The position numbers and the translations under genes are program-made. From contig JBLXCF010000008.1 of assembly GCA_048265145.1 (NCBI GenBank), positions 67,570 through 131,569 on the forward strand: a stretch of DNA of 64,000 bases, in the 5' to 3' direction. Shown here one piece after another: positions 49,366 to 63,923 of the stretch. Position 1 is the first letter of the stretch; each line of letters starts with the position of its first letter. The notes beneath the pieces are model-generated. The model had not been told where the DNA came from. It was given only the letters and a program-made list of their open reading frames with translations, and ran no database searches. Source of the stretch: Aequorivita sp. (lineage in GTDB: Bacteria; Bacteroidota; Bacteroidia; Flavobacteriales; Flavobacteriaceae).

Positions 49366-50193
49366 ATGGACCAACCAGTAAAAATATTTAGGTTTGACGT
49401 TGAAGAGGCAAAAAAAGTTGCTTCTTCAACTAATGAACCTCATATCCACGATTTTGAAGAAATCCTTATAGGAATGGAGGGTTCTATTGAGCATTTCATA
49501 GATTTTGAAACCACAACCGTAGATGCTCCCTATGTTTGTTTTGTAAGCAAAGGTAAGGTTCACAGAGTAAAGCCTATAGTAAAAGATGGTAAGTGCGATG
49601 TTTGGGTAATTAGGTTTGGTAGTGAATTTGCAGCTGAAATTATTTTTCAACTTTACGCTGCATTCCACAATACGGCTAATATATTTTGGCCGGTGGAAAG
49701 GTTTACCGGCCGCCTTCCGGTTTTGACTGAAATGATGTATAATGAATTAAGACAATCAAATCCTGATTTTTCCGTCATTCGCCATTTGCTCAATGCCGTT
49801 ATTTCGATTGTATTATCAGAAAAACAGAAACAGCAGCCCACAGCTATTTCCTCAAACCAAAATGAGACGTTTACCAATTTTCTCGCCATTTTGGAAGAAA
49901 ATTTTCGGCGCCCCTTGAGCGTGGGATATTATGCGGAAAAATTGTTTATGAGCACCCGGAACTTAAATTTAATTTGCCAAAATATTCTACAGCAAAGTGT
50001 TTCGGAAATCATTGAAACCAGAAAATTGACTGAAGCCAAAAACCTTCTGACTTCCACGGATAAAACCATTGCCGAAATAGCCTACGAATTGGGTTATAAT
50101 GAAAATTCTTATTTTTCTAATGTTTTCAAAAAAAAATCGGGTCAAACACCAGGTGAGTTTCGGGATGAAATGCGAAGCCTGTTAACTCCCTAA
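49366..50193 (+). CDS. AraC family transcriptional regulator
   Basis: N-terminal cupin-like H.HDF; C-terminal IAEIAYELGY...YFSNVFKKK.GQTP. Confidence 0.92.
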   Translation: MDQPVKIFRFDVEEAKKVASSTNEPHIHDFEEILIGMEGSIEHFIDFETTTVDAPYVCFVSKGKVHRVKPIVKDGKCDVWVIRFGSEFAAEIIFQLYAAFHNTANIFWPVERFTGRLPVLTEMMYNELRQSNPDFSVIRHLLNAVISIVLSEKQKQQPTAISSNQNETFTNFLAILEENFRRPLSVGYYAEKLFMSTRNLNLICQNILQQSVSEIIETRKLTEAKNLLTSTDKTIAEIAYELGYNENSYFSNVFKKKSGQTPGEFRDEMRSLLTP

Positions 50194-50285
50194 AATTATA
50201 CCTCTACTACCGGAAAGTGTAATTCTTAAAATCCTTTGTGCTACTATTTTTGTAATCAAATAATTAATTAACAATTTAATTTTAA

Positions 50286-50861
50286 ATGATTATGAAAAAA
50301 GTACTGATTTTAGTTGTAATGTCCCTATTTACAATAGGAGCTTTTGCACAGACCCAATGGCAGGTAGACCCAAACCATTCTTCGCTAAACTTTAGCATCA
50401 AGCATTCAGGCATTAGTTTGGTGAATGGCAAGTTTTTAGACTACACAGGTAGTTTAACCACCAATGGCGAGGCCTTGCGTGATGCACAATTTAATTTTAA
50501 CGTGCAAGTGGCAAGTATCAACACCAATGTAGATGCGAGGGACAAACACTTGAGAAGTGCCGATTTTTTTGAGGTGGAAACCTATCCGACGATGACCTTT
50601 AATAGCACTAAAATTTTAGCGACGGGTAAACCAGAACATTTTTTATTGTATGGCGAGCTTACTATTAAAGGAGTTACAAAACCAGTAATTTTTGATGTGT
50701 ACTACGGGGGAACGGCCAAGAGCGACCAAGGTGAAAAATTAGGTTTGAAAGCGAAAACCACTATCAACAGGTTTGACTACAACATTAATTTTGACCCTAC
50801 CGCAGCTGGTATTGGTAAGGATGTGGATATTGTAGTTCATCTACAGTTCGCCAAACAGTAA
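50286..50861 (+). CDS. YceI family protein
   Basis: Signal peptide; W.VDPNHS, SINT...RD.HL.S.DFF and GELTIKGVTK motifs. Confidence 0.92.
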   Translation: MIMKKVLILVVMSLFTIGAFAQTQWQVDPNHSSLNFSIKHSGISLVNGKFLDYTGSLTTNGEALRDAQFNFNVQVASINTNVDARDKHLRSADFFEVETYPTMTFNSTKILATGKPEHFLLYGELTIKGVTKPVIFDVYYGGTAKSDQGEKLGLKAKTTINRFDYNINFDPTAAGIGKDVDIVVHLQFAKQ

Positions 50862-50981
50862 AACTATTTAAAGGGAAGTTATTCATATTTTGAATTTAGA
50901 AATCATGAAAAAGTTTAAAATCCAAAAGATAAGCAGAGAAGACGTGTATGGCAAAGCAAGTTTCGTAGTTAGATTACGTGA

Positions 50982-51863
50982 ATGAATAGAAAACAATTTT
51001 TAAAATCAATGGCACTATTGCCGCTAATAGGTTCAAGTATGAAATTGAAAGATTTAAATAAAATGACAGCAACAATGAGTAGTACAGAAAAAATGCCTGT
51101 ACTATTCTTGGGTCATGGAAGCCCTATGAATGCCATTGAGGAAAATGAATTTGTGGCAAATTTTAGACGGCTGGGAAATGAATTGGTACGCCCCAATGCA
51201 ATACTCTGTATTTCTGCCCATTGGGAAACGAATGGCACATATGTAACAGCAATGCAAAATCCTCCTACCATTCATGACTTTGGAGGTTTCCCACAGGAGC
51301 TTTTTGAAGTACAATACCCAGCACCGGGAAGCCCTCAACTGGCAAAACAGACCAAGGCGATAATAACAAAAACAAATGTAGGATTAGATGATAAATGGGG
51401 GCTCGACCACGGAGCGTGGAGCGTTATAAAACATCTCTATCCCAATGCCGATATCCCGGTAATTCAAATGAGTATTGATTATACACAGCCTGCAAAATAT
51501 CACTATGAATTAGCAAAGGAATTGAATGGCCTTCGCACAAAGGGTGTTCTAATTGTGGGAAGTGGAAATATGGTACACAATCTTCGCATGGTTTCGTGGA
51601 AAAGGTTAAACGAAGTATATGCCTACGATTGGACTATTGAGGCCAACGAAAAGATGAAACACTTTATCGTTAACGAAGATCACAAAAGTTTAATTGACTT
51701 TAAATCCCAAGGAAAAGCTTTTGAGTTAGCCATCCCAACGCCCGAACATTATATGCCGTTGATTTACACCTTGGCATTAAAGACCAAAAATGAAGAAATA
51801 ACAATATTTAACGACAAACCTGTTGGAGGCTCACTGACTATGACTTCAGTAAAGATAGGTTAG
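50982..51863 (+). CDS. ygiD: 4,5-DOPA extradiol dioxygenase
   Basis: FLGHGSPM, SAHW, DHGAW, GSGNMVHNL and PTPEHY motifs. Confidence 0.9.
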   Translation: MNRKQFLKSMALLPLIGSSMKLKDLNKMTATMSSTEKMPVLFLGHGSPMNAIEENEFVANFRRLGNELVRPNAILCISAHWETNGTYVTAMQNPPTIHDFGGFPQELFEVQYPAPGSPQLAKQTKAIITKTNVGLDDKWGLDHGAWSVIKHLYPNADIPVIQMSIDYTQPAKYHYELAKELNGLRTKGVLIVGSGNMVHNLRMVSWKRLNEVYAYDWTIEANEKMKHFIVNEDHKSLIDFKSQGKAFELAIPTPEHYMPLIYTLALKTKNEEITIFNDKPVGGSLTMTSVKIG

Positions 51864-51880
51864 AAACAAAACAATGAATT

Positions 51881-52303
51881 ATGAAAAAATTACTGAATAT
51901 TGAATTAAAAGAGAACACAGTTGGTATGGCTGTCTTATTATTAAGGTTGGGTGTGGGTATAATGATGCTTGTTCATGGAATTCCAAAACTATACATGCTG
52001 TTTAGCGGAGATATTCAGTTTCCCATTGTTATGGGGATGAGCGCAACGTTTTCATTAGTATTAACTGTGGTTGCAGAAGTTTTATGCTCTATATTACTGC
52101 TAATTGGACTTTTTACCAGAATAGCGGCCATTCCATTAATTATAACCATGTTGGTAGCCGTATTGATGATTCACGGTAGCGATCCATATGCCTTGAAAGA
52201 ATTAGGACTGTTTTACTTGTTGGCCTATGTAGTTTTGTTAATACTTGGCAGCGGTAAATATTCTTTTGATGCTATTTTGAAAAACTATCAATTAGAAAAA
52301 TAG
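51881..52303 (+). CDS. DoxX family membrane protein
   Basis: LLLRLGVG.MM..HG..K, LLIGLFTR and G.GKYSFD motifs. Confidence 0.9.
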   Translation: MKKLLNIELKENTVGMAVLLLRLGVGIMMLVHGIPKLYMLFSGDIQFPIVMGMSATFSLVLTVVAEVLCSILLLIGLFTRIAAIPLIITMLVAVLMIHGSDPYALKELGLFYLLAYVVLLILGSGKYSFDAILKNYQLEK

Positions 52304-52324
52304 ATATTGTTAATATTTACAGCT

Positions 52325-52891
52325 ATGTCCGTGTCAAAAACCATATTGGTTAGGTCACTTGTGCTTTTTCAAACCCATGGAATCAAGACCGTTAGAATGG
52401 ATGATATAGCCCGAGAAATGGGTTTATCAAAGAAGACCATTTATCTTCATTATGGCAGTAAAAAGGAATTGGTTCAAAAATGTATTCACCATCTTTTTGA
52501 TTTACATTTTTCAAATATCAAAAGGATTCAAGATGAAAGGGGAACACCGATAGAGAAAATAAAAAAGATTTATGAATACGCCGTAAAACATTTAATAAAA
52601 GTTACACCTAATTTTTATTTTGATTTAAAAAGAGGTTATCCGGAAACCTATCAGTTTTATGCCCTTCAACGCGGTAAAATAGTTTTTGGTATAATTAAAA
52701 CCTTATTGAAAAAGGGGCAAAGGAGTGGTGAAATAGACCCCACAATCAATACCCAGTTGTTTTGTGAATTTCATCTGATAAATCTTGATCAAGTAATAAG
52801 CCATAAAACCGCGCTTATGGAATATAGCTTGCAAGACCTATTTGACAACACTATTAGAGTGAGCCTGAATGGTATTATTAAAAGACAATAA
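52325..52891 (+). CDS. TetR/AcrR family regulator
   Basis: GIKTVRMDDIAREMGLSKKTIY HTH. Confidence 0.9.
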   Translation: MSVSKTILVRSLVLFQTHGIKTVRMDDIAREMGLSKKTIYLHYGSKKELVQKCIHHLFDLHFSNIKRIQDERGTPIEKIKKIYEYAVKHLIKVTPNFYFDLKRGYPETYQFYALQRGKIVFGIIKTLLKKGQRSGEIDPTINTQLFCEFHLINLDQVISHKTALMEYSLQDLFDNTIRVSLNGIIKRQ

Positions 52892-53076
52892 TTTATTCAG
52901 CTCTTTTTAAATTTAAATCCTGCATGTTAATGAAGGCAAGTTACTTTCCGATGCAAAATGTAATGTATGTCTGATTATCAGTTAATTAGCTATCAATAGA
53001 TACAAATAAGCAACAAGAAGTGTTGAATTATAGCTAATTAAAGACTAAAGATAAGAAAATCGGGAGGTGTAAAGAT

Positions 53077-53107
53077 AAAAAAACCGCCCCCAAATGAGGA
53101 CGGTTTT
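53077..53107 (-). terminator. Terminator of the DUF6266 gene
   Basis: Minus strand AAAACCGTCC-TCATTTG-GGGGCGGTTTTTTT. Confidence 0.8.
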
Positions 53108-53128
53108 CCAAGAAAACGTCAATCGCTT

Positions 53129-53770
53129 TTACGCAACTGTTACAGAACCTAAATAAGCGTTATTGGACACTTTAGAACCATCTTCGGAAATAAACCCTAA
53201 GAACACCTCCACATCTTCGCCGGTATATTCAGGTGGTACTGAAATACTTTCTGTTCCGGCTGACCTTGTTGGTCCAGCGGTGGTAAATACTACTTCTCCT
53301 CTTGTCCCGTTATAGAGCAAAATCAAAGTTTTGTCTGTTACCATTGCACTTCCACTGCCTGAATTGTCAGTCCAGTTAATGTCAACCGTTGATGCGACTG
53401 TGGAAGCCGCGGCACCGCCAACTACTCCGGTTAGATTACCACGGGTTACCAAAGCGTTTCCATAGTCAATGGAATAGTTAGGATAGGATCCTGTTACTCC
53501 ATTGTACAAGTTGTAAGACATTGCAGCATTGAATTGGGTCATCTTGTTTGCATACAATTTGAAACCAACCCGTAGGAAGTCTGTCATAGGTTGCAGGAAA
53601 CGAAGCACGGTTGAAAACTTTGAGCGCTGGTCAACTTGTCCTTCGGTTTTGGGGTTCGCTACGCTGGAAGGTTTGATTCGTAGGTAATCGATGCCCTTCC
53701 AGGTCCCACCGATTACATTCCCGATTTTTCCGGATACACCGCCGAGAATACCTTGATTGATGATTGCCAT
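53129..53770 (-). CDS. DUF6266 family protein
   Basis: N-terminal G.LGG.SGK.GNV.G..WKG, NP.T..Q..QR.KF and L...G.L motifs, C-terminal SN..Y.G; recognised from memory. Confidence 0.8.
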   Translation of the reverse strand: MAIINQGILGGVSGKIGNVIGGTWKGIDYLRIKPSSVANPKTEGQVDQRSKFSTVLRFLQPMTDFLRVGFKLYANKMTQFNAAMSYNLYNGVTGSYPNYSIDYGNALVTRGNLTGVVGGAAASTVASTVDINWTDNSGSGSAMVTDKTLILLYNGTRGEVVFTTAGPTRSAGTESISVPPEYTGEDVEVFLGFISEDGSKVSNNAYLGSVTVA

Positions 53771-54218
53771 AATTTATATGTATTTATGGGTTAAACAAAT
53801 GTTCGGACTTGGCACGGACTTGACTCGGCTTTTGCCCTTTCATTCAAAATTACTTCAATATATATGCTATGATTCGGGCAAGGGAATTGTTGCTTCTATT
53901 TGCTTTTGTTTGCCTTGTGGAATTTGATTTTTTGTCAGGTACCGGGTTCAGGATGTGAATGATTGGCTAAATAGTTTCTACAAGATAATCTGTCTCCCGG
54001 AAGTCAATCCCTTATTGTGGATAAAAAAAAGGGGGTTGGAATAAGTGTCAACCGGCCGATGAGGTCTGATTTGAAACGTTTTCCTACAGTGAGCTATTAA
54101 AACCTTGCCTTCCGCGATTGCTCACTTCAATATTAATTTTCAAAGATGTTCGCAAATTCAACAGCCATCCATTTCCCATATTTTTTTTCAAAAGAGAAAA
54201 GAAAAAAGGAAAAAAAAT

Positions 54219-54385
54219 AAAAGAGAAAGCTTTTAATAAGGCGGGTCTGGGAGGGTTGTCAAGGTTTTTGGAAAAAATACTACCCGGAGGGTGGAGATTT
54301 TTTGCAAAACCCGTAGGGCTTGACCTTTACAATCCTTTTGTGCGGCTTGCTGGTGCGGACCCGCCTATCTTCGCTTTTCTCTTTT
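54219..54385 (+). promoter_or_regulatory. Long hairpin 1, candidate single-strand (Frpo-like) promoter
   Basis: Arms pair: AAGAGAAAGC with GCTTTTCTCTT, AGGCGGGTC with GACCCGCCT, TCAAG with CTTGA. TATCTTCG (54366-54373) lies across a mismatch bubble. Confidence 0.6.
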
Positions 54386-54432
54386 AATTTTCACTTGAAA
54401 AAACATTGCACTAATTTTCTTTGAAAATCGGG

Positions 54433-54723
54433 TTAATGTCGCAGTTCATTTGCTTTTAATTGTGCGATTAACTCTTTTTTGTTGTAATACCGTCTGTTGC
54501 CCAAACCGTAACATTTAATTTTTCCTTTGTTAGTCCATTGCCAAAGGGTTGAGGAATTGATTTTTAGAAAATCAGCTGCTTCTGTTCTGGTCAGAAAGAC
54601 GTCCACTTGGCCGGAATGTAAATCATCTAAATAATGTTTGATTTTTTGCAGCAATTTTTCTGCTACAATATCTGTTAACTCGTCAACGTATACTTCTGTA
54701 ATTTCGATTGTTCGCGCTACCAT
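54433..54723 (-). CDS. Excisionase-like (HTH_17/MerR-like) DNA-binding protein
   Basis: LTRTEAADFLKINSSTLWQW..KG.I..Y..G.RRYY, typical of Bacteroidota integrative elements. Confidence 0.85.
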   Translation of the reverse strand: MVARTIEITEVYVDELTDIVAEKLLQKIKHYLDDLHSGQVDVFLTRTEAADFLKINSSTLWQWTNKGKIKCYGLGNRRYYNKKELIAQLKANELRH

Positions 54724-54960
54724 TTCTTCTGAATTAAGGTTTCTTAAATGTAAATTTTCCTGTTACGAGAAAAAAAAGAACTCCCTAAAAAGGGAGCTCT
54801 GACAATGAAAGCTCTAGCCAAAAGAGCCGAACGGTATAATCTACAACACCGCAACGAACCACGCCCGCAAAGAAAGGACGACCTGACAACCGAACGCCCG
54901 CCAACAACCAACGGCTGCCACAACGGACTGAAAACAATGATTTGTACATAAATGAAAGAT

Positions 54961-55125
54961 TTAAATTAAACAAAATGCCGCACCACAGGATCGGTGCGAT
55001 TGACGCAAGGGCTGTGGACAAAAAATACTACCCGATAGGGTGGAGATTTTTTTTCCAACAGGCGAAGCGAACCCTTGCGGCTCTCGCATCCGCACGCCTG
55101 TACCTTTGCTTTTTGTTTGAGTTAA
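54961..55125 (+). promoter_or_regulatory. Long hairpin 2, candidate single-strand (Frpo-like) promoter
   Basis: Arms pair: AAACAAAA with TTTTGTTT, ACAGG with CCTGT, GGTGCGA with TCGCATC, CGCAAGGG with CCCTTGCG. TACCTTTG (55101-55108) lies across a 6x6 bubble. Confidence 0.62.
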
Positions 55126-55334
55126 TTCTTCTTCCGAAATTCTATTCGGTGGATTAATTGAAGTATTTTAATCCTAAAGAGTTAAGATATTTGTGCCATT
55201 ATAAAACACATAAAAACGATGAAGGCCACTATCAATATTTTGACCTATAACGGACTGTCGGTATCAGTTTTATAAACACCTTCTTCATCCTTTGGGAAAA
55301 GTAAATAGTAGAAATCTTCAAATAGACTTTTCAT
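55122..55334 (-). pseudogene. Possible decayed small membrane protein gene
   Basis: MKSLFEDFYYLLFPKDEEGVYKTDTDSPL*VKILIVAFIVFMCFIMAQIS*... reads in one frame with two internal stops. Confidence 0.35.
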
Positions 55335-55748
55335 CGGTTACTAAATTACTAAAAATATGGAAACGTAAATGTGCGCAAACGCAGGTAAACTAGCGTAGCT
55401 ATAGTGGAAGCACGCAATGGAGAGTAATGGAATGGAGTGCTGGAACTATAAAGCGAGCCGCCTGCGAGCGGAGCAAGGGTGGTGGCTGCAGAAGCCCGAG
55501 GAAGGAGGGCGGCAGACGCCTACCGTTTACGGCAGGGCTGGCGCGATTTTTTGCTTCAGCGGCGGAAAAGGCAAGTGTGGCGTTTGAACGAAACGAAGCG
55601 GTGCCGGAGCCGTAATGGAGCAATGCCTAAAGAGTTACAATTTTGATGAGTGTTTTGTTTCGTTTATTAAGTTAAAAGTTAATTGAAGTAGACATTGGGG
55701 CATTGCGAAATGGAGGTACGAAGGCTCGCGCAGTGTAGTGAAATAGCC

Positions 55749-56317
55749 ACTCTTGTGTGCGTTGCTGAAAGTGGGTGATTGTAGAGAGAGAGGCACGAAC
55801 GAACGAAAAGAACCTACTGAAAGCAAATGGCGGATTGCAAAAAACGTGACAGCCCGATCAGCCCGCAGCGACCCGCAGGCTCGCACAATTAACAAGTGGC
55901 GGCAGACCCCCAATTAAAAAAGTGGTGAGCGGAGCGAACACCTTATCGGGGTTTGGGGGGATGGAGTAGCCACGGGTGAGGAAGGAGAGTAGCGTGTGAA
56001 GCAAAACAAGTGAACGGCAGGTGGCGAGCACCCACTGGAGCGCAAGGCACCTGGTAAGTGAACGGTATATGCAAGGGCGACCGCAGGGAGTTCATTTTAC
56101 CCTTGCAGATATGTTTTTGCGGAACAAAGCGGAACGACTGACGAACACCGCTTTACCTGCGTTGGGATGTGCGTGGGGAAAAGCAAGGGTGCGACTGATT
56201 GAGGTGGAGAGTAACGGAACCGATTGAAGGAGTACTCTTGCTGCGCGTTGCTGGAAGTGGGTGATTGTAGAGAGTGAGGCACGAACGAACGTAAAGAACC
56301 GACTGGAAGCAAATGGC
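55749..56317 (+). repeat. ~84-bp imperfect direct repeat, 2 copies (55749-55831 and 56234-56317)
   Basis: Shared core GTGGGTGATTGTAGAGAG.GAGGCACGAACGAACG; about 6-7 differences counted by eye. Confidence 0.9.
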
Positions 56318-56419
56318 TGTGCGGTGGGTTTTTTTCCTTAAATTGGAATCATCTAATTCCGCTATAGAAGGAATAAGGTTAGCTTTAGTGGTGAGGAAAT
56401 TAGGGTCAGTATATTAAGC

Positions 56420-56790
56420 ACAATAATACAATATGATTAGTGATGTTAAAACCAAACTGGAAGTTCAACCAATGGTTCAATAATTAATGATAATGCAATT
56501 AATGGTTCATAAGAAAAAGCAGAAACGGCAATGGCTAATGAAATAGGTGAATTTCTTGCCGTAGTAGTTAATGTCAGGCTTACCCTGTCTGAATAGCTAA
56601 ACTTTAGGGATTTGCCTGAGGATTTGACCAATAATAAATATCACAATGAAAAATATCAGTAGAGGAATGAGCAATTTATAAATGACATCTGGGTTGTCTA
56701 TTAAGTTTTTGATGCGAACATAGCAACAACCGCTAGAGCAAGGAACATTTTTTTCGTTCGAGAAAAACAATCTTTTTGAAGCCAAGATAA
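56420..56790 (-). pseudogene. acr3: ACR3/SBF-family arsenic-resistance transporter, 3' fragment with frameshifts
   Basis: Three frames give FLALAVVAMFAS / NLIDNPDVIYKLLIPLLIFF / SLTLTTTARNSPISLAIA...EPLVELPV. Confidence 0.75.
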
Positions 56791-56801
56791 GTATGCGGAT
56801 G

Positions 56802-58706
56802 TTATAAATCCTTCCGTTGTATTCTCACAGCATTCAATATAGCCAAAAGAGCTACACCCACATCTGCGATAACGGCTTCCCATAAAGTAGCAACACCGCC
56901 TGCACCTAATGCAAGTACTATAATTTTGACTGTCATAGCGAGAATGATATTTTGCCAGACAATGTTTTTGGTGATTTTACCCGCCTTTATTGCTGCAACG
57001 ATCTTTGACGGCTGGTCGTTTTGAATAACTACATCTGCTGTTTCGATGGTGGCATCACTACCGAGACCGCCCATTGCAATACCAACATCGGCGAGGGCAA
57101 TAACCGGAGCATCGTTAACACCATCGCCTACAAAGGCCAATTTTACTCCTTCTTTTTTAAGAGCCTCCACTTTCTCCACTTTTTCGTCCGGAAGCAGTCC
57201 ACCATAAGCTTCATCAATTCCCAAAACTTTTGCCACCTGATCTACCACTGTTTGTTTATCACCAGATAACATTACGGTTTTTATGTTTAGACGGTGCATT
57301 TCCTTGATGGCCTGATATGCATCTTCCTTTATTTCATCGGCAATAGTGATATAACCGGCGTACTTATTATCAATGGACAATACCACTATGGTATCTACAA
57401 TCTGTTCGACTTCGGCAGGATAAGCTATGTCATATTTCTTTAAAAGTTTAAGGTTTCCAGCCAATACTTCCTTATTACCAACGATGCCTTTCAAGCCGTG
57501 TCCTGCTATTTCTTCAATGTTTGAAGTTTGTAGGCCTTGGTGTTTATTATCGGCATAATCCGTTACAGCTATGGCTATGGGATGGGTCGAGTTCTTTTCC
57601 AAAGCTGCTGCTACTTTGATCAGTTCTTCTTTTTCAATTCCTTCGGATACTACTTGCTGAACTTTAAAGACCCCTTTGGTCAAGGTGCCTGTTTTGTCCA
57701 TCACCACTGTTTTTACTTGGGTCATAACATCCAAATAGTTTCCGCCTTTGAACAGGATTCCATTTCGGGAAGCAAGGCCGATACCTCCAAAGTAGCCCAG
57801 AGGTATGGAAACAACCAATGCACAGGGACAACTGATCACCAAGAATACCAAGGCACGATAAAACCATTCCCGAAACACATAATCATCCACAAAAAATATT
57901 GGGGTTACACAAAGTGCCAGTGCAAGGAAAAATACGATTGGGGTATATACTTTGGCAAAACGGGATATGAAGAGTTGGGTCTGTGATTTACGTGCGGTGG
58001 CATCCTGTACCATTTCCAAGATTTTGCTGAGTTTACTATCCCTAAACAGGGCGGTTACCTTTACTTCTGCAAGTGTATTTTGATTGATCATCCCGGCCAG
58101 TACCTGTTCACCTTTATATTTGGTATCTGGTTTGCTCTCCCCTGTTAATGCCGCAGTGTTGAAAGAGGCTTTTTCAGAAATGAGATCACCATCCAAGGCA
58201 ACCTTTTCACCAGGTTTCACTTGTATCTTTTCTCCTATTTCTACTTCTGAAGGATGTATAACCTGTGATTTTCCGTTTCTTAGAACGATAACTTCATCAG
58301 GCCTTATATCAAGCAAGGCTTTAATGCTTCTTTTGGCGCGCTTAACTGCCGAGTCCTGAAACCATTCGCCTATTTGGTAAAATACCATTACGGCAACACC
58401 TTCTTCATATTCTCCAATGATGAATGCGCCGATTGTTGCCACACTCATCAATACAAATTCATTGAAGAAATCGCCTCTTTTTGACTTTCGCCAAGCGAGA
58501 TCTAAAACTTTTCTTCCGGCGAGAAGATAAGCAATGAGGTTAATTGCCAATAAAGGTATAGTGGGTATGTCGAGGTTAAACCCATATTCCAATGTTAACA
58601 GTATAACCAAAATCAGCAAGGCAAGCAGAAGGTCCCAGTGGGTTTTCCAGCCTGTTTTTTCTTTATTAACTTTTGGGCTTAAGGGCCGGGATGTAGCTGC
58701 TTTCAT
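56802..58706 (-). CDS. cadA: P1B-type heavy-metal ATPase (Zn/Cd/Pb, CPC type) without an N-terminal metal-binding domain
   Basis: TGES, SCPCAL, DKTGTLT and GDGVNDAP motifs. Confidence 0.9.
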   Translation of the reverse strand: MKAATSRPLSPKVNKEKTGWKTHWDLLLALLILVILLTLEYGFNLDIPTIPLLAINLIAYLLAGRKVLDLAWRKSKRGDFFNEFVLMSVATIGAFIIGEYEEGVAVMVFYQIGEWFQDSAVKRAKRSIKALLDIRPDEVIVLRNGKSQVIHPSEVEIGEKIQVKPGEKVALDGDLISEKASFNTAALTGESKPDTKYKGEQVLAGMINQNTLAEVKVTALFRDSKLSKILEMVQDATARKSQTQLFISRFAKVYTPIVFFLALALCVTPIFFVDDYVFREWFYRALVFLVISCPCALVVSIPLGYFGGIGLASRNGILFKGGNYLDVMTQVKTVVMDKTGTLTKGVFKVQQVVSEGIEKEELIKVAAALEKNSTHPIAIAVTDYADNKHQGLQTSNIEEIAGHGLKGIVGNKEVLAGNLKLLKKYDIAYPAEVEQIVDTIVVLSIDNKYAGYITIADEIKEDAYQAIKEMHRLNIKTVMLSGDKQTVVDQVAKVLGIDEAYGGLLPDEKVEKVEALKKEGVKLAFVGDGVNDAPVIALADVGIAMGGLGSDATIETADVVIQNDQPSKIVAAIKAGKITKNIVWQNIILAMTVKIIVLALGAGGVATLWEAVIADVGVALLAILNAVRIQRKDL

Positions 58707-58743
58707 TTTATTAAAATTTTCTTTAAAGATACTTTAAAAGGTT

Positions 58744-58760
58744 ATGCACAGGAATTGCAT
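58744..58760. promoter_or_regulatory. ATGCA-N7-TGCAT palindrome, candidate metalloregulator operator
   Basis: ATGCACAGGAATTGCAT lies just upstream of a minus-strand TATCTTTA -7-like element (58724-58731). Confidence 0.4.
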
Positions 58761-58765
58761 TTGCA

Positions 58766-58975
58766 TCAGCATTCATCTTTTCTTGTTAACTGGATAGGAG
58801 GACAGGGCAAAGAACCATAAGAACAGTAAACGCAACAGTCACCTTCTTTTGGTTTTAGAACAGTTTTACACTTCTCACATTCATAAAAGAATTGACAGGA
58901 ATTTGTTGGCATATCTTCTACTTTTTTGTGTCCGCAGTTTGGACAGGTAATTTCTGATTTTAATATAGCTTCCAT
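58766..58975 (-). CDS. GDCCVxC domain small Cys-rich protein
   Basis: ITCPNCG, CQFFYEC..C and GDCCVYCSYGSLPCPP motifs. Confidence 0.9.
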   Translation of the reverse strand: MEAILKSEITCPNCGHKKVEDMPTNSCQFFYECEKCKTVLKPKEGDCCVYCSYGSLPCPPIQLTRKDEC

Positions 58976-59140
58976 TGATTTTTATTTTTTCTTGTTACCT
59001 TGTAATTTGTTGCATTAATTGCTTCCTCAATTTTCACCTTCATTCGTTTTAGTATCGTCAAACTCAATGATCGCGTTACCATTTTCGTAAGGATTTAGGT
59101 TATCCAGTTCGGTTTTAAAATCTTCAAACATCCAGTCCAT
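58960..59140 (-). pseudogene. Chimeric remnant: N-terminus of a small MDWMFEDF protein fused to an HMA (MerP-like) C-terminus, frameshifted
   Basis: MDWMFEDFKTELDNLNP|YENGNAIIEFDDTKTNEGE(N*). Removing one A gives ...EIEEAINATNYKVTRK. Confidence 0.65.
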
Positions 59141-59149
59141 AACATTAGA

Positions 59150-60466
59150 TTAATGGTTAAAAAGCTCCTTTTCTTTTTCAGGGTCTATTTCATCTTTTGA
59201 CTTTTTGTCCAAAAAATAATCCAAGATAATGCCTACTGCAATCGCTCCCACAAACGCGGCATAAACTTTCCAATCAAATTGTATGACCAAAGAGAGGCTT
59301 ATGATTATCGCCAAAATTGGCAGTATCGGAACTTTCCCAACAGATAAAGGAACTTTAAAGGGCCTGTCTTTATCTGGTGCTCTGAAACGCAATACGATAA
59401 GGGCAATGTTCACGGCGACAAAGACGAGCAACGCACCCAATGACGACATTCCCGCTACGATTTTAATATCGCCCAATAGCATAAAACCCGCAACTGCCGC
59501 CATAACCACAATGGTAGTAACCCACGGCACTTTATGTGCATTGGTTTTGGTCATAAATTTCGGAAGTTCGCCCACGCTTGCCATTCCAAACAGCAGCCTG
59601 CTGATAGAGATAATACCGCTAAAGGCCGCATTGGCAGTAGCAAAAAGTGCTGCGACCGCCAATGTCACGGGCAACCAACTGTTGAGATTTGATGCCGCAA
59701 GTGAAAGTGGCGAATCTACTTTTGCCAGTTCTGACGGGTCGGCAATGTTAAGTACCGTAAAAGCTATGAGCAGATAGATAACGGTTGTAAAAACCATTGT
59801 CAGTAGAAAGGCACGAGGAATGGTCTTGCCAGGGTTTTTTACTTCAGAACCCAATGCAGCCATATGCTCAAAACCTGTATAGACAAAAAACAAGGTTGCG
59901 GTAGCCGCCAAAGTACCGGAAAAGGATTCAACTTTAAAAAATTCAGCCTTTGGCGGGCCAGTTTCTGCAAGCCCGACCACAATAAGAATGAACAATCCCA
60001 AAAGTTGTATGCTAACCATTATAATATTGGCAGTAGATGATTTCTTGATTCCCGTAATGCTTATCAATGAAAGAATTATCAATACGCCATAACTTATCAA
60101 TAGGGAAGGCACACTAAAAAAAGTGTTGAAATAACCTGAAAAGGCCAGCAATACAGCGGCTATCGTGGCAGAACTGTGAAAGGCAATTGTCCAGCCAGTG
60201 AGAAAGGAAGGAATGTCAATTTTCGGAAACGCTTTGCGTACAAAAATGAATTCGGCACCTGCATTGGGATAGGTAGAGGATAACTCTGCATAAGACAATG
60301 CCGAAACGCTGGCAGCAATTGCAGCGAAAACAAAACTCAACCAAAGGTCGGTACCTGCTTGTCCAGCTGCTGCGCCTATGACAGTATATATTCCTGCACC
60401 CACGATAGTGCCTACTCCATAAAAGGTAAGGCGAATTGTTCCCAATGATTTTTTTAATTCTGCCAT
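59150..60466 (-). CDS. APC family amino acid permease
   Basis: GVGTIVGAGIY, SYAELSS..P.AG.E, FVYTGFE and PDKDRPFKVP motifs. Confidence 0.92.
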   Translation of the reverse strand: MAELKKSLGTIRLTFYGVGTIVGAGIYTVIGAAAGQAGTDLWLSFVFAAIAASVSALSYAELSSTYPNAGAEFIFVRKAFPKIDIPSFLTGWTIAFHSSATIAAVLLAFSGYFNTFFSVPSLLISYGVLIILSLISITGIKKSSTANIIMVSIQLLGLFILIVVGLAETGPPKAEFFKVESFSGTLAATATLFFVYTGFEHMAALGSEVKNPGKTIPRAFLLTMVFTTVIYLLIAFTVLNIADPSELAKVDSPLSLAASNLNSWLPVTLAVAALFATANAAFSGIISISRLLFGMASVGELPKFMTKTNAHKVPWVTTIVVMAAVAGFMLLGDIKIVAGMSSLGALLVFVAVNIALIVLRFRAPDKDRPFKVPLSVGKVPILPILAIIISLSLVIQFDWKVYAAFVGAIAVGIILDYFLDKKSKDEIDPEKEKELFNH

Positions 60467-60547
60467 AATATTTTTTAAGTTAGAGAAGGTGGAAGAAACC
60501 TGAACCTGACCATTGGACCCAAGGGTTCAGAATTCTGAAACTTCCAT

Positions 60548-60985
60548 CTAATATTTTTGCCTGCATTTTTCACATATTCCCTTTAATATCAGGTTCACAT
60601 TTCTCACTTCATAATCGTCTGGCAAGCTTTCTTTCGATATCTTATTCGGTAAACAGATTGTTCTTCTGCAATCGGTACAATGAAAATGCAGATGTAAATC
60701 TATACCGTATTTATCTTTGGCGTTTTCATCAGAAATAGCATATTTTGCCACTCCGACCCCATCATTAATCTGATGAATCAGCCCTTTATCCTCGAAAATC
60801 TTGAGATTTCGATAAAATGTCGTTCTGTTTGCTGTTTTATTGGTTTCGCTCTTTTGAACAAAAGCCTTTTTCAAATCGGAAAAGGACACGGCACTTTGCT
60901 TCCTTTTCAGGAACTTGTATATCTTCAACCTCATTTGAGTAGGTCGAATACCGTGATTTAATAGTATCTTTTCCGTTTTAGTCAT
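60548..60985 (-). CDS. Fur family transcriptional regulator
   Basis: GIRPTQMR, TTFYRNLKIF, HLHFHC..C and C..C motifs. Confidence 0.9.
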   Translation of the reverse strand: MTKTEKILLNHGIRPTQMRLKIYKFLKRKQSAVSFSDLKKAFVQKSETNKTANRTTFYRNLKIFEDKGLIHQINDGVGVAKYAISDENAKDKYGIDLHLHFHCTDCRRTICLPNKISKESLPDDYEVRNVNLILKGICEKCRQKY

Positions 60986-61035
60986 TGCAATATTAATTCA
61001 AAAGCAAACCCTTTTTTCAAAACATATATTTGATG

Positions 61036-63564
61036 CTATTTCTTATAAGCCAAAAGCCTTAACGCATTAAAAACCACAAGTAATGTTGAGCCTTCGTGGA
61101 TGACCACTGCAATACCGATATTGGCCCAACCCATAATGGTCGATGGGATAAGCAATGCCACAATACCGAGGCTTACCCAAAGGTTTTGCTTGATAATTGC
61201 CTTTGCCTTCCTGCTCAAGCCTATGGCAAAGGGCAGGGTTTCCAATTTATCGGCCATTAGGGCAATGTCTGCAGTTTCCAAGGCCACATCACTGCCCGCT
61301 GCACCCATTGCGATACCTACTGTGCTGTTTGCCATTGCAGGGGCATCGTTCACACCGTCGCCTACCATTGCGACTTTGGATTCCTGTTCTTTTAATTTTT
61401 TAATGGCATCTACCTTTTCCTCTGGCAACAGGCTTCCCCAGGCATCGGTCAACCCAATTTCTTTAGCAACGGCATCGGCAACCTTTTGATTATCCCCGGT
61501 TAGCATTATCATCCGCTTGATACCGATTTCCTTTAATTTTTTCAGTGTTTCCTTGGCCGCTTCCCGTGGGGTGTCCATCAGGGCGATGATACCTATATAT
61601 TCTTTGTTCCTTCTTATGAGCATCGTAGTATTTCCACCACCTTCAAGTTCTTTTACTTTATTCGATATATCTTCGGATGGTTTTGCTTCATCGAGGTCTT
61701 CGTACAAGTCAAGGTTTCCAATATAGATTTTATCCTTGCCCAAAGAAGCTTTGATACCTTTTCCGAGAACTGCTTCCAAATCTGACGCATCGATAATATC
61801 AGTACCTTTCAGACGCTCTTTCCCATCCCTTACGACGGCTTTGGCCAAAGGGTGGTCGCTCAAGTTTTCAACGGCAACGGCTATCTTTAACAGTTCATTT
61901 TCTTCAATATCCCCCAATGGTACTACTTCGGTAAGTTTGGGCTTGCCTTCGGTAAGCGTGCCTGTTTTATCAAAAGCCAAAGCGGTTATGACCCCTAAAT
62001 CCTCAAGTGGTCGCCCACCTTTGATGAGCACGCCGCCACGTGCTGCCCTTGCCACACCGCTCAATACGGCACTTGGTGTTGAAATGGCCAGTGCACAGGG
62101 ACTTGCAGCTACCAATACCGCCATTGCACGATAAAAGCTGGCACTAAACGGTTCGTCAATGACCAGAAAGGCAAAGAGTAGGATACCAACCAGTATCAGT
62201 ACGGATGGCACAAAGTATTTTTCGAACTTATCGGTCAGCAGTTGCGTGGGGGACTTCTGGGTCTGTGCCTCGTTGACCAATTTGACCAGTCGGGACAGGG
62301 TAGAGTCTTTGGCTTCTTTGATTACCTTTATTTCCAGCGTGTTATTACCGTTGATAGTTCCGGCAAATACCCGATTTTCATCCTTGATATCATCGTCTGC
62401 CGAATAGTCCCTGCCTGTATCTTCCACGGGAAGTTTATCCACGGGTACACTTTCCCCAGTAATAGGGGCCTGGTTTACACTGCTTTTTCCGTTGACCACG
62501 ACGCCATCTGCGGATATTTTACTATTGGGCTTGACCACTATAATATCGCCAATACTCAATTGCTCAATTCCAACTTCTTCGGTCTTGCCATCTTTTTTAA
62601 GCAATGCTGTTTTTGGTGCAAGGTCTGCAAGCGCAGCAATGCTTTTTCTTGCTTTGTTCATTGCGTAATGTTCCAAGGCGTGCCCAAGGCTAAATAAAAA
62701 CAACAACAGTGCACCTTCTGCCCATTCTCCCAGAATGGCGGCACCAATGGCAGCGACCAGCATTAAAAAATCAATTTCAAAACCACCCTTGGCCACAGTT
62801 TGAACCGCTTCCTTGGCCGTAAAGAAACCACCGAAAAAGTACGCGCCAATGTACAAAGTAAGACTGACCCAATCCGGGATGGATTCCACATAAGAAAGCC
62901 CGAAACCTATCCCGAGAAGTGCCCCACAGATAATGGAAAAAATAAGCTCCGTATTTTTACCGAAAACCCCACCGTGGGCGTGCTCTTCTCCTTCCTCGTG
63001 GGTCTCGCCCTCCTTGTGCTCGTGGCCCTCTGTGGAAGTTTGCTCTTTAGTATCTTCCTTCTTTGAACGTTCCTGTTTTTTTTTGGATGCTTCGGTGTAA
63101 TTATTTTCGTTTGAAGAACTCCGCTTAACCTGAAGGTCTTCCTTTTCAATCTGTTTACTTATTTCATCAAAATTTGTTTGCTTTTTATCAAACTCAAGGC
63201 GCACCATTCCAGAGACCGAAACGGAAGCCTCCAAAACCCCATTGATTGCCAAAAGACTTTTCTCTATGGAACGTGCCTGTCTTGTATGTCTGATTCCTTT
63301 AACCTCTATGAGCAAATGCCCGTATTTTTCGGTAATCTCGGCACCCGTCTGTTCTGCGAGAGATTGAATGCGGTCTATAGAAATGATATCGGGGTCATAA
63401 TGAAAACAGAGCTGTGGTGTGTCATCTTCCTTTGTATCGGCAACGTGTACTTTTTCGATGCCCTCTTTAGCCTGTAATTCTTTTATAAGCCGCTCAACAC
63501 AAGTATCTTTTTCGTTTGGAACTTGCGGAAGGATAACTGGAATTTTTAGTTGTATTTTTTTCAT
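61036..63564 (-). CDS. zntA: P1B-type heavy-metal ATPase (SPC type) with N-terminal metal-binding domains and a His-rich linker
   Basis: HEHKEGETHEEGEEHAHG linker; TGES, ASPCAL, DKTGTLT and GDGVNDAP motifs. Confidence 0.9.
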   Translation of the reverse strand: MKKIQLKIPVILPQVPNEKDTCVERLIKELQAKEGIEKVHVADTKEDDTPQLCFHYDPDIISIDRIQSLAEQTGAEITEKYGHLLIEVKGIRHTRQARSIEKSLLAINGVLEASVSVSGMVRLEFDKKQTNFDEISKQIEKEDLQVKRSSSNENNYTEASKKKQERSKKEDTKEQTSTEGHEHKEGETHEEGEEHAHGGVFGKNTELIFSIICGALLGIGFGLSYVESIPDWVSLTLYIGAYFFGGFFTAKEAVQTVAKGGFEIDFLMLVAAIGAAILGEWAEGALLLFLFSLGHALEHYAMNKARKSIAALADLAPKTALLKKDGKTEEVGIEQLSIGDIIVVKPNSKISADGVVVNGKSSVNQAPITGESVPVDKLPVEDTGRDYSADDDIKDENRVFAGTINGNNTLEIKVIKEAKDSTLSRLVKLVNEAQTQKSPTQLLTDKFEKYFVPSVLILVGILLFAFLVIDEPFSASFYRAMAVLVAASPCALAISTPSAVLSGVARAARGGVLIKGGRPLEDLGVITALAFDKTGTLTEGKPKLTEVVPLGDIEENELLKIAVAVENLSDHPLAKAVVRDGKERLKGTDIIDASDLEAVLGKGIKASLGKDKIYIGNLDLYEDLDEAKPSEDISNKVKELEGGGNTTMLIRRNKEYIGIIALMDTPREAAKETLKKLKEIGIKRMIMLTGDNQKVADAVAKEIGLTDAWGSLLPEEKVDAIKKLKEQESKVAMVGDGVNDAPAMANSTVGIAMGAAGSDVALETADIALMADKLETLPFAIGLSRKAKAIIKQNLWVSLGIVALLIPSTIMGWANIGIAVVIHEGSTLLVVFNALRLLAYKK

Positions 63565-63923
63565 TTTTTACTATTTTTTTTTATCCATTCTTTGGCATCG
63601 TCTTTTTCTTCTGGCTTATAAAATTTTATATGAGCTTCTGAAAAAGGAAGCAATGCCTCGGTAAATTGCTCCTGCCATATAACGCTACCCACTAAAGCAA
63701 CACGCTTTAAATGCGTTTCATTCGGAAGATTTAATTCAATGCCCTTCCAATATGCGTTTGCCGTCCAGCCTTCAAAATTATGCATTTCGATGTACCAAGA
63801 AACTTCCTGATATGCAGTTATATGTTCTATTAAGACCGGTATCAAGTTTTCATAATCCTTGGCATCCAGCTTATTCTCTGCCACCATATATACAGTAGCC
63901 TCTTTTTTATAGATTGTTATCAT
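63561..63923 (-). CDS. STAS/SEC14 (SpoIIAA-like) protein
   Basis: KL...DYE...P, F.GW, RVALVG and A..W motifs. Confidence 0.85.
   Translation of the reverse strand: MITIYKKEATVYMVAENKLDAKDYENLIPVLIEHITAYQEVSWYIEMHNFEGWTANAYWKGIELNLPNETHLKRVALVGSVIWQEQFTEALLPFSEAHIKFYKPEEKDDAKEWIKKNSKK

What the first reader, a model, noticed from the sequence alone, without database searches (positions are those of the whole stretch)
54272..55052. Near-identical 32/33-nt apex motif caps two otherwise different hairpins
Seen: AAAAAATACTACCC-GGA-GGGTGGAGATTTTTT (54272-54303) and AAAAAATACTACCC-GATA-GGGTGGAGATTTTTT (55020-55052) differ only in the loop, while the surrounding arms share little sequence. The same internal mismatches (T.G, A.A/G) are kept in both. 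Each hairpin also has a GNA mini-hairpin side branch (CCC-GTA-GGG at 54310; GC-GAA-GC at 55062). Inference: this is a specific recognition site, for example for RNAP or an element-encoded protein, a primase or a relaxase, that works in folded nucleic acid.
Basis: partly seen in the sequence, partly recalled or inferred. Interest (0 to 1): 0.62.

Follow-up and report, generated by a model that had tools for sequence, protein, structure and literature searches.

The report
Conserved cap on single-strand DNA promoters
The shared 32-nt motif is the tip of a hairpin found on mobile DNA throughout the phylum Bacteroidota; the hairpin rebuilds a host promoter on a single DNA strand and probably switches on "arrival" genes, a device so far shown only in E. 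coli plasmids.

Summary
Two ~165-175-nt strand-specific hairpins (window 54213-54390 and 54956-55131, + strand) share only a 32/33-nt apex (54272-54303, 55020-55052).

The motif is not local. ATACTAYCC-loop-GGRTGGAGATTT occurs in at least 120 Bacteroidota genome contigs, at least 104 IMG/VR contigs, Bacteroides CTnDOT-like elements and a 4.9-kb Marivirga mobilizable plasmid. The loops vary freely and the flanking stems covary.

Across 118 non-redundant copies:
- The motif strand folds better than its complement in 113.
- A perfect Bacteroidota sigma-A -7 box (TAnnTTTG) lies on the 3' arm of the same strand in 82, and never on the other strand.
- The box core tends to lie in a bubble.
- The box sits at a fixed helical distance from the motif: 44-51 nt generally, and 47 nt in both window hairpins.
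- The next gene lies on the opposite strand (104 of 127) and is typically SSB, ArdA, RadC, DUF932, DUF6943, ArdC-like or a methylase.

Best reading (about 0.62): these are Frpo-like single-stranded-DNA promoters adapted to Bacteroidota. The motif is an upstream cap read by a conserved host factor, most plausibly RNA polymerase. Nothing is shown experimentally. The transferred strand is inferred, and copies in true phages are unexplained. I found no published description.

The parts
54213..54390 (+). Hairpin 1 (whole fold-back, about 178 nt)
   Evidence: DNA fold -41.6 kcal/mol, z -5.3. Homologous hairpins in L008-L010, L025 and L046 at 83-89% identity. Consensus fold with compensatory pairs.
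54272..54303 (+). Apex motif of hairpin 1: AAAAAAT/ATTTTTT stem, A x AG internal loop, CTACCC/GGGTGG stem with T.G wobble, GGA loop
54310..54318 (+). C-GNA-G mini-hairpin side branch (CCCGTAGGG) on the 3' arm
   Evidence: Forms in the fold. Present in 65 of 119 copies, with covariation in helix 4.
54319..54324 (+). CTTGAC (candidate -33 TTG), held in duplex with TCAAGG at 54259-54264
   Evidence: CAAG on the left arm and CTTGAC on the right arm are both conserved in alignment A2; fold
54336..54358 (+). 23-nt extra segment on the 3' arm with no partner on the 5' arm. If it loops out, the -33 to -7 spacing measured on the template arm is about 20 nt.
   Evidence: Fold. Right arm 73 nt against left arm 47 nt. 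The spacing argument is inference.
54366..54373 (+). -7 box variant TATCTTCG (relatives have TAACTTTG or TATCTTTG). ATCTTC is unpaired, opposite 8 unpaired nt at 54231-54238.
54219..54230 (+). Lower stem, template side of hairpin 1, pairing with 54373-54385. The predicted start of leftward transcription is about 54222-54226.
   Evidence: Fold and alignment fold. The start site is inferred from the usual position of the box.
53993..54097 (-). Remnant of a DUF6943 gene (first 35 codons, 54% identity), the usual first gene behind this hairpin type
   Evidence: tblastn. DUF6943 is the left gene in 30 loci.
53129..53770 (-). DUF6266 gene, the next intact gene downstream of hairpin 1
   Evidence: Pfam E 2e-99. 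Syntenic in L008-L011, L025 and L046.
54433..54723 (-). HTH_17 (Xis/AlpA-like) gene between the hairpins. It is absent from relatives in which the two hairpins lie 363 bp apart.
   Evidence: Pfam
54770..54800 (-). Terminator-like stem-loop plus T8 on the - strand, about 200 nt downstream of hairpin 2
   Evidence: conserved in L025, L027, L046 and L114
54956..55131 (+). Hairpin 2 (whole fold-back, about 176 nt)
   Evidence: DNA fold -42.7 kcal/mol, z -6.2. Homologues in L011, L025 and L046.
55020..55052 (+). Apex motif of hairpin 2 (loop GATA)
55062..55068 (+). GCGAAGC mini-hairpin side branch
   Evidence: Fold. From memory, d(GCGAAGC) is the classic very stable DNA mini-hairpin.
55072..55079 (+). 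CCCTTGCG with the candidate -33 TTG (55075-55077), paired with CGCAAGGG at 55004-55011. The spacer to the -7 box is 23 nt.
55101..55108 (+). Perfect -7 box TACCTTTG, with ACCTTT in a 6 x 6 internal loop
54968..54978 (+). Lower stem, template side of hairpin 2, pairing with 55108-55119. The predicted start of leftward transcription is about 54970-54974.
   Evidence: Fold. The start site is inferred.

Best explanation
**What the hairpins are.** Each hairpin is a promoter that exists only when the + strand is single-stranded. It would be a Bacteroidota counterpart of the Frpo/ssi promoters of F and IncI1 plasmids.

**How the fold builds a promoter.** When the + strand folds, the 3' arm supplies the non-template strand of a host sigma-A promoter. 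The -33 TTG is held in duplex. The -7 box TAnnTTTG has its AnnTTT core in a bubble, so it is already melted. The 5' arm serves as the template.

**Direction and output.** RNA polymerase starts in the 10-12-bp lower stem. It runs out of the base of the hairpin leftwards into the - strand genes.
- In this window hairpin 2 leads to a ~200-nt terminated RNA and then HTH_17.
- Hairpin 1 leads to a DUF6943 remnant and then DUF6266.
- The same transcript could also prime complementary-strand synthesis.

**Role of the shared motif.** The 32-nt motif is the upstream cap of this pseudo-duplex, at roughly -50 to -62. A sequence-specific factor common to the phylum probably reads it. That factor is most plausibly RNA polymerase itself, in an UP-element-like contact, or a host protein that helps it load on folded DNA.

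**Shown by computation.** The structure, strand specificity, box position, bubble, fixed distance, gene orientation and gene content.

**Inferred.** That the + strand is the transferred strand, that transcription happens from it, and who binds the cap.
For: 1. **Spread.** The motif occurs across the phylum on mobile DNA with free loops: 5 other genera among 400 genomes of the window's own family, at least 120 contigs, 118 of them labelled Bacteroidota, 13 of 300 sampled genomes with 1-4 copies each, a CTnDOT-like circle and the plasmid pFTRAC01.
2. **Structure under selection.**
   - 87.9% of cells are paired against 78.5% in shuffles.
   - The covariation score is 0.248 against 0.111 (0 of 500 shuffles reach it), and no more than 0.123 when partners are slid.
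   - There are compensatory pairs along the full hairpin.
3. **Strand specificity.** The motif strand is more stable than its complement in 113 of 118 copies, by a mean of 11.4 kcal/mol, p = 2e-19.
4. **Promoter on the 'wrong' strand.**
   - A perfect TAnnTTTG lies on the 3' arm in 82 of 118 copies, and at least 5 of 6 bases match in 109.
   - There are 0 perfect boxes on the opposite strand of the 3' arm or on the 5' arm read on the - strand, and 4 in shuffles.
   - The downstream genes therefore have no perfect -7 box of their own in the ~155 nt checked on the motif's 5' side (the 5' arm and its near flank).
5. **Bubble.** Box positions 2-7 are paired in 39-46% of folds, against about 70% upstream and 88-94% at the final G and the next base. 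The same bubble appears in the consensus fold.
6. **Fixed geometry.** The template-arm distance from motif to box is 44-51 nt in 52 of 77 copies and 47 nt in both window hairpins. The 3' arm is bimodal, at 48-59 or 64-75 nt.
7. **Gene orientation and content.** The next gene is on the opposite strand in 104 of 127 cases. These genes are DUF6943 (30), SSB (7), RadC, ArdA, DUF932, LPD11 and N6 methylase. This is the gene set seen in plasmid leading regions (PMC11541004).
8. **Relaxase orientation.** Relaxase genes lie on the strand opposite the motif in 4 of 4 testable elements. This is expected if the relaxase enters last and the motif strand is transferred.
9. **DNA-type loops.** 3-nt apex loops occur in 50 of 119 copies, 31 of them GNA, plus C-GNA-G side hairpins.
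Against: - No transcription or transfer data were available.
- The transferred strand is inferred only from the relaxase-last rule.
- The box is a perfect consensus on the + strand. In duplex DNA the same promoter could fire rightwards in many copies that have a normal 19-23-nt spacer. A duplex function is therefore not excluded.
- The motif also occurs in a real tailed phage, with a head maturation protease on the same contig. No entering single strand is expected there.
- In the window's own island no relaxase or oriT was found, and hairpin 1 now faces a gene remnant.
- Invariance of the core is partly built into my search pattern.
Confidence: 0.62

Rival explanations
1. The same fold-back device is mainly a priming signal for complementary-strand synthesis, like an sso or ssi site. 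Host RNA polymerase or primase would make a short primer on the folded strand, and gene expression would be secondary. The apex motif would mark the loading or stop site, like the conserved RSB and CS-6 blocks of ssoA origins.
For: - On the 4.9-kb plasmid pFTRAC01 the hairpin lies about 280 nt upstream of the mobC-relaxase operon, next to the likely oriT. A primer site would be useful there.
- There are only 1-4 copies per genome.
- Frpo itself was described both as a promoter and as a primer source (PMC12672017, citing Masai and Arai 1997).
Against: - The hairpin sits directly upstream of a gene start, typically 85-135 nt from the motif.
- It carries a complete sigma-A promoter.
- Two copies lie 363-750 bp apart in front of separate units.
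- There is no CS-6 TAGCGT in the apex, and the loops vary freely.
Confidence: 0.14
2. It is an ordinary duplex-DNA promoter firing rightwards on the + strand. It would make an antisense or non-coding RNA. The upstream inverted repeat and apex motif would be a binding site for a regulator or a cruciform.
For: - The box is a perfect consensus on the + strand.
- Many copies have a workable linear TTG-to-box spacer of 19-23 nt.
- To the right of hairpin 2 lies a conserved ~1-kb purine-rich non-coding stretch on the + strand.
Against: - The arms covary as an intrastrand helix that includes the -33 box and the start region.
- Folding is strongly strand-asymmetric. A duplex site or a cruciform would not require that.
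- The box core is kept unpaired in the fold.
- In the long class, which includes hairpin 1, the linear distance from the conserved CTTGAC to the -7 box is about 40 nt.
- The gene on the right is usually convergent, in 84 of 124 cases.
Confidence: 0.12
3. It is an RNA element. Either the apex is a bidirectional intrinsic terminator or insulator between transcription units, or the whole hairpin is a structured RNA.
For: - The apex matches a terminator pattern (6-bp GC-rich stem followed by a T run) on the + strand.
- A run of A on the other side would give a U-tract on the - strand RNA.
Against: - No co-oriented + strand gene or -7 box lies upstream to make a + strand RNA.
- On the - strand the invariant T.G becomes a C.A mismatch and the fold is 11 kcal/mol weaker.
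- Terminators do not keep 21 nt invariant across a phylum.
- No Rfam family matches at E up to 1.
Confidence: 0.07
4. It is a recombination or transfer site, such as an oriT-like nick hairpin or a site for a recombinase, or simply a selfish repeat spread by gene conversion.
For: - In L009 one copy is a chimera: the left arm of the hairpin-2 type is joined exactly at the motif to the right arm of the hairpin-1 type.
- An IntDOT-like integrase lies 1-2 kb away in 14 loci.
Against: - The chimera no longer folds (z = -0.56). It looks like an accident of homologous exchange and not a product of a dedicated system.
- A relaxase is nearby in only 1 of the ~125 loci.
- This reading does not explain the promoter, the bubble or the fixed spacing.
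Confidence: 0.05

Closest known systems
Frpo / ssi single-stranded-DNA promoters of F, ColIb-P9 and pESBL (Masai and Arai 1997; PMC9849209; PMC12672017; PMC11541004)
   Same: - A long imperfect hairpin on the template strand of the downstream genes.
- Host sigma boxes rebuilt in the stem, with the melting-region box mismatched.
- The hairpin sits in front of ssb, ardA-type and methylase genes.
- All of those genes lie on one strand.
   Different: - The boxes are the Bacteroidota -33 TTG and -7 TAnnTTTG, not the sigma-70 -35 and -10.
- There is no sequence relation to Frpo.
- A phylum-wide invariant apex cap sits at a fixed distance. I know of no counterpart in Frpo.
- There are C-GNA-G side hairpins.
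- The box is a perfect consensus on the folded strand, so a duplex-state rightward promoter is possible.
- The device also occurs on integrative elements, a 4.9-kb plasmid and phages.
- Activity is untested.
ssoA-type single-strand origins of rolling-circle plasmids, and the Sso of ICEBs1 (from memory: Kramer/Khan/Espinosa work; Wright, Johnson and Grossman 2015)
   Same: - An orientation-specific ~150-200-nt hairpin read by host RNA polymerase.
- Short conserved blocks shared by otherwise unrelated hairpins.
- A role after conjugative entry.
   Different: - The conserved blocks RSB and CS-6 (TAGCGT) are absent, and the apex loops here vary freely.
- A full promoter points out of the hairpin base into genes.
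- The hosts are Bacteroidota.
6S RNA and other open-complex mimics
   Same: A fold-back nucleic acid that offers RNA polymerase a pre-melted promoter-like bubble flanked by helices.
   Different: - This one is probably DNA, not RNA.
- It is not a sequestering decoy.
- There is no Rfam match, including the 6S families.

Membership tests
Frpo/ssi-type single-stranded-DNA promoter | Long imperfect hairpin that forms on one specific strand | tested here: met
   z = -5.3 and -6.2. The motif strand is more stable in 113 of 118 copies. Covariation.
Frpo/ssi-type single-stranded-DNA promoter | Host primary-sigma promoter boxes rebuilt in the stem, with the melting-region box in mismatches | tested here: met
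   TAnnTTTG on the 3' arm in 82 of 118 copies. CAAG/CTTG are held in duplex. The box core is paired in 39-46% of folds against about 70-90% for its flanks. This is computational only.
Frpo/ssi-type single-stranded-DNA promoter | The folded strand is the template strand of the downstream genes, which are establishment or anti-defence genes | tested here: met
   The left gene is on the opposite strand in 104 of 127 cases. The genes are SSB, ArdA, RadC, DUF932, LPD11, methylase and DUF6943.
Frpo/ssi-type single-stranded-DNA promoter | It lies on the transferred strand in the leading region next to oriT | tested here: inconclusive
   Relaxase orientation fits in 4 of 4 elements under the relaxase-last rule. 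No nick site is known. Many copies lie near an integrase at an element end, and one is in a phage.
Frpo/ssi-type single-stranded-DNA promoter | Transcription from single-stranded DNA but not from duplex DNA | not testable with these tools
   This needs in vitro transcription or transconjugant 5'-end mapping.
Frpo/ssi-type single-stranded-DNA promoter | Sequence homology to F or ColIb-P9 Frpo | not tested
   No Frpo sequence was compared. The boxes differ in kind (sigma-70 against Bacteroidota sigma-A), so homology is not expected.
ssoA-type single-strand origin | Conserved CS-6 (TAGCGT) in the terminal loop, and RSB | tested here: not met
   Apex loops are 3-12 nt and vary freely (GGA, GTA, GATA, GCCAGTTGGC and others). 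None is TAGCGT.
Intrinsic terminator | GC-rich stem-loop plus T run at the 3' end of a co-oriented transcription unit | tested here: not met
   The pattern matches on the + strand. However, the upstream genes are on the - strand, and the sequence, not only the shape, is conserved.
Any Rfam RNA family | Covariance-model match | tested here: not met
   cmscan of 50000-64000, both strands, E up to 1, gave only a chance lncRNA hit elsewhere.
oriT nick-site hairpin | Inverted repeat next to a nick site beside a relaxase gene | tested here: not met
   A relaxase lies within the held DNA (a block of at most 8 kb per locus, 20 kb for five) in 1 of the ~125 loci. None is in the window's island as far as I examined it. 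The hairpin is far larger than typical oriT repeats.

The most novel reading that the evidence does not exclude
Bacteroidota mobile elements of every kind (ICEs, mobilizable islands, small plasmids and some temperate phages) share one portable module that senses whether the DNA is single- or double-stranded. A phylum-specific 21-nt cap would let the host RNA polymerase, or a conserved helper, load on a folded single strand at a fixed 47-nt distance from a pre-melted -7 box. The single box would fire leftwards into arrival and anti-defence genes while the DNA is single-stranded. Once the DNA is duplex it would fire rightwards, or fall silent. If so, the motif is a one-line search key for unannotated anti-defence genes across the phylum.
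Probability: 0.3. Interest if true: 0.82.

Novelty: new variant of a known kind. Interest (0 to 1): 0.68.

Why it matters
**State of knowledge.** Single-stranded-DNA promoters are shown experimentally only for enterobacterial IncF and IncI plasmids. In the paper library no paper holds both 'ssDNA promoter' and any word beginning 'Bacteroid'. No paper in it on bacterial mobile elements holds the motif strings.

**If this reading holds:**
- The dominant gut and marine phylum has its own version of the device, built on its unusual sigma-A boxes.
- The invariant cap is a concrete protein-DNA recognition problem that can be tested with a 35-nt oligonucleotide.
- The cap is a simple handle for finding arrival genes. 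DUF6943, DUF6266, the PRTase-like protein and ArdC-like genes become candidate anti-defence factors.
- It could improve conjugative delivery tools for Bacteroides and Flavobacteria.

Tried and rejected
- **Rfam.** A search of 50000-64000 found no family.
- **Link to DUF6266.** Only 1 of 6 other DUF6266 loci in 150 genomes has the motif within 1.5 kb. The motif is tied to a position in the element, not to that gene.
- **A -7 box on the - strand inside the apex complement (TAGTATTT...).** The bases needed after TATTT are not conserved, so I rejected it.
- **A -7 box within the apex 3' arm (GAGATTTT).** Only 4 of 6 bases match and there is no room for a -33 box, so I rejected it.
- **'The promoter geometry exists only in the fold'.** This holds for the long class, including hairpin 1. 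It does not hold for the short class, where the linear spacers are normal. I do not claim it in general.
- **Literature on the CTnDOT nick strand.** I could not retrieve it.
- **The ~5.7-kb contigs with the motif at both ends.** These are two different hairpins flanking a giant methylase gene, not small circles.
- **Two hits labelled as other phyla** (Flexilinea and Faecousia MAGs). One is nearly identical around the motif to a Segatella contig. This is probably a binning error.
Full report
**1. Observation.**

A pattern covering the core finds only these two copies in the window, with none expected in shuffles. It also finds only these two in the whole 2.9-Mb genome.

Each copy caps a long imperfect hairpin on the + strand. 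Hairpin 1 spans 54213-54390 (-41.6 kcal/mol, z = -5.3). Hairpin 2 spans 54956-55131 (-42.7 kcal/mol, z = -6.2). BLAST between the two aligns only the ~33-nt apex, so this is not a recent longer duplication. The GNA side hairpins lie at 54310-54318 and 55062-55068, as stated.

**2. The motif is widespread and is part of a selected structure.**

- The exact core with different loops occurs in five other genera among 400 genomes of the window's own family.
These cover Bacteroidales, Flavobacteriales, Sphingobacteriales, Cytophagales and Chitinophagales. Two hits are labelled as other phyla and are probably binning errors.
- A covariance model built from 119 copies finds the element in 13 of 300 other sampled Bacteroidota genomes, at 1-4 copies each.
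- The motif is also present in Bacteroides, Parabacteroides and Phocaeicola plasmid records. One of these is a circular CTnDOT-like element. It is also on the 4.9-kb mobilizable plasmid pFTRAC01 of Marivirga.
- It occurs in at least 104 IMG/VR contigs.

Loops range from 3 to 12 nt, and one copy has 59 nt. The stems flanking the core differ between copies yet stay complementary:
- 87.9% of cells are paired, against 78.5% after shuffling.
- The covariation score is 0.248 against 0.111, and 0 of 500 shuffles reach it. It is no more than 0.123 when partners are slid.
- One core pair covaries: C-G in 95 copies and T-A in 15.
- The T.G wobble and the A x AG internal loop never change. My pattern fixed most core bases, so that invariance is only partly independent evidence.

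**3. Which strand, and DNA or RNA.**

With RNA parameters the motif strand folds better than its reverse complement in 113 of 118 non-redundant copies. The means are -73.3 and -61.9 kcal/mol, p = 2e-19. The function therefore belongs to one single strand.

No -7 box lies upstream on that strand to transcribe the hairpin as RNA. The invariant T.G would become a C.A mismatch in RNA from the other strand. Three-nucleotide loops (50 of 119, 31 of them GNA) and C-GNA-G side hairpins (65 of 119; GCGAAGC in hairpin 2) are typical of stable DNA mini-hairpins (the stability is from memory). No Rfam family matches.

**4. A host promoter sits inside the fold.**

The Bacteroidota primary-sigma consensus is -33 TTG or TTTG and -7 TAnnTTTG. 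I take this from memory of Bayley et al. 2000, Vingadassalom et al. 2005 and Chen et al. 2007.

- A perfect -7 box lies on the 3' arm of the motif strand, 30-90 nt past the motif, in 82 of 118 copies. At least 5 of 6 bases match in 109.
- There are no perfect boxes on the opposite strand there, or on the 5' arm read on the - strand. Shuffled arms give 4.
- A conserved CTTGAC on the 3' arm pairs with a conserved CAAG on the 5' arm. The -33 element is therefore double-stranded in the fold.
- Box positions 2-7 (AnnTTT) are paired in only 39-46% of the folds. This compares with about 70% upstream and 88-94% at the final G and the next base.
- In hairpin 2, ACCTTT lies in a 6 x 6 internal loop. In hairpin 1, ATCTTC faces 8 unpaired bases. 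The 18-sequence consensus fold shows the same bubble, with compensatory changes in the stems on both sides.
- A 10-12-bp lower stem follows the bubble.

This is the design of an open-complex mimic.

In the fold the 3' arm is the non-template strand, so the polymerase must copy the 5' arm and leave the base of the hairpin leftwards. That is the direction of the neighbouring genes. The next gene on that side is on the opposite strand in 104 of 127 cases, often 85-135 nt from the motif. It has no perfect box of its own in the ~155 nt checked on the motif's 5' side.

**5. The cap is at a fixed distance.**

Counted along the template arm, the motif starts 44-51 nt from the partner of the box's G in 52 of 77 copies. 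The distance is exactly 47 nt in both window hairpins. The 3' arm is bimodal, at 48-59 or 64-75 nt, because it carries the side hairpin and sometimes a further ~20-nt insert.

The cap would therefore occupy about -50 to -62 of the rebuilt promoter. That is the upstream edge of a polymerase footprint, and the T-run next to it falls where UP elements lie in E. coli (inference). This coupling is why I favour RNA polymerase, or a helper that loads it, as the reader of the motif.

No element-encoded protein is common to all carriers. The neighbouring genes fall in more than 10 families. pFTRAC01 encodes only Mob, Rep and HicAB proteins plus three hypothetical proteins.

**6. Gene content and context.**

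The first genes behind the hairpin are:
- DUF6943 in 30 loci, SSB in 7, DUF6266 in 4, and a giant N6 methylase in 4.
- RadC, ArdA, DUF932 and LPD11 in smaller numbers.
- In IMG/VR contigs: a PRTase-like protein in 28 of 60, ArdC-N-like proteins in 18, plus RadC and LPD11.

This mirrors the leading-region anti-defence and establishment sets of plasmids (PMC11541004).

Relaxase genes lie on the strand opposite the motif in the four elements where both are visible. That fits the motif strand being transferred if the relaxase enters last. This is only a rule of thumb.

In the window, the module DUF6266-(DUF6943 remnant)-hairpin 1-HTH_17-terminator-hairpin 2-purine-rich region is syntenic with Flavobacteriaceae and Cytophagales relatives. 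It forms the far end of a ~38-kb island whose genes all lie on the - strand. The island ends outside the window with two HTH_17 genes, an integrase and primase-like genes, and it carries metal pumps and defence genes. No relaxase was seen in the part I examined. Conjugation genes lie on other contigs.

**7. What does not fit.**

- One carrier contig is a true tailed phage: a head maturation protease lies upstream of the hairpin-PRTase-RadC module. No entering single strand is expected there. Replication-exposed single strands, or a duplex-state role, may explain it.
- The box is a perfect consensus, so in duplex DNA it could fire rightwards in copies with a normal spacer. To the right of hairpin 2 there is a conserved purine-rich non-coding kilobase. 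I cannot exclude a direction switch between the single-stranded and duplex states.
- In L009 one copy joins the hairpin-2 left arm to the hairpin-1 right arm exactly at the motif, and it no longer folds. The shared core can evidently mediate exchange.

**8. Comparison and novelty.**

The device works like the Frpo/ssi promoters (PMC9849209, PMC12672017). It uses different boxes and has no expected homology to them. It adds an invariant cap and GNA side hairpins.

It is not an ssoA origin (no CS-6), not a terminator in context, and not an Rfam family. The library holds no paper that combines 'ssDNA promoter' with any word beginning 'Bacteroid'. No relevant paper holds the motif strings.

Earlier notes of this scan reached the same hairpin-promoter idea in other genomes. 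They are leads and not evidence. The new point here is the phylum-wide cap and its fixed spacing.

**9. Verdict.**

The binding partner, the activity and the transferred strand remain to be shown.

Noticed in passing
window 54770-54975, - strand: Between hairpin 2 and HTH_17 lies a ~200-nt stretch with no convincing ORF. It ends in a strong terminator-like stem-loop plus T8 (54800-54770). The stretch is conserved at 75-77% in Marivirga and Fontibacter relatives, where the two hairpins are 363 bp apart. It is a candidate small RNA made from hairpin 2.
   Followed up: partly
window 53993-54097, - strand: A remnant of a DUF6943 gene: the first 35 codons at 54% identity to the intact gene in L009. 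The usual first gene behind hairpin 1 has been lost here, which is a sign of decay of the module.
   Followed up: yes
window 55365-56330: A purine-rich non-coding kilobase with two ~84-bp direct repeats (55749-55831 and 56237-56316). It is conserved at 78-84% in L008-L010 and lies on the + strand to the right of hairpin 2. Its function is unknown. It could be the product of the same box firing rightwards in duplex DNA.
   Followed up: partly
window 56802-58706, and L009 12678-14579: The P-type ATPase is 99.8% identical at protein level to one in a genome of another genus (G345). The adjacent permease is 93% identical. This points to recent transfer of the island between genera.
   Followed up: partly
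own genome C8:131000-158681 (beyond the window's right end): The island continues with genes all on the - strand. It carries an RND pump, a DUF262 protein, a Piwi-domain (pAgo-like) protein, three ORFs sized like type I restriction-modification subunits (not searched against any family), DUF3987/PriCT_2 and BT4734-like primase-type genes, two HTH_17 genes and an integrase. An ORF that looks like dnaN (first residues only, not searched) follows. No relaxase was seen in the part I examined.
   Followed up: partly
L009 9857-10047: A chimeric hairpin: the left arm of the hairpin-2 type is joined at the motif to a copy of the hairpin-1 right arm. It does not fold (z = -0.56). This is evidence of exchange between copies at the shared core.
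   Followed up: yes
L166 (IMG/VR contig, 37.6 kb), motif at about 7227: The capped hairpin, followed by a PRTase-like gene and RadC, sits in a contig that also has a phage head maturation protease. All genes are co-oriented. A single-strand promoter in a tailed phage is unexplained.
   Followed up: partly
L154 2919-3045: A copy upstream of the closest DUF6266 homologue carries a 59-nt insertion in the apex loop while the core is intact. The loop is therefore not part of the recognised site.
   Followed up: no
L017, L032, L034, L107: Gut Bacteroidales contigs of about 6 kb have a motif copy near each end, about 5.7 kb apart, flanking a giant N6 methylase gene. Assemblies seem to break at these repeated hairpins.
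   Followed up: partly
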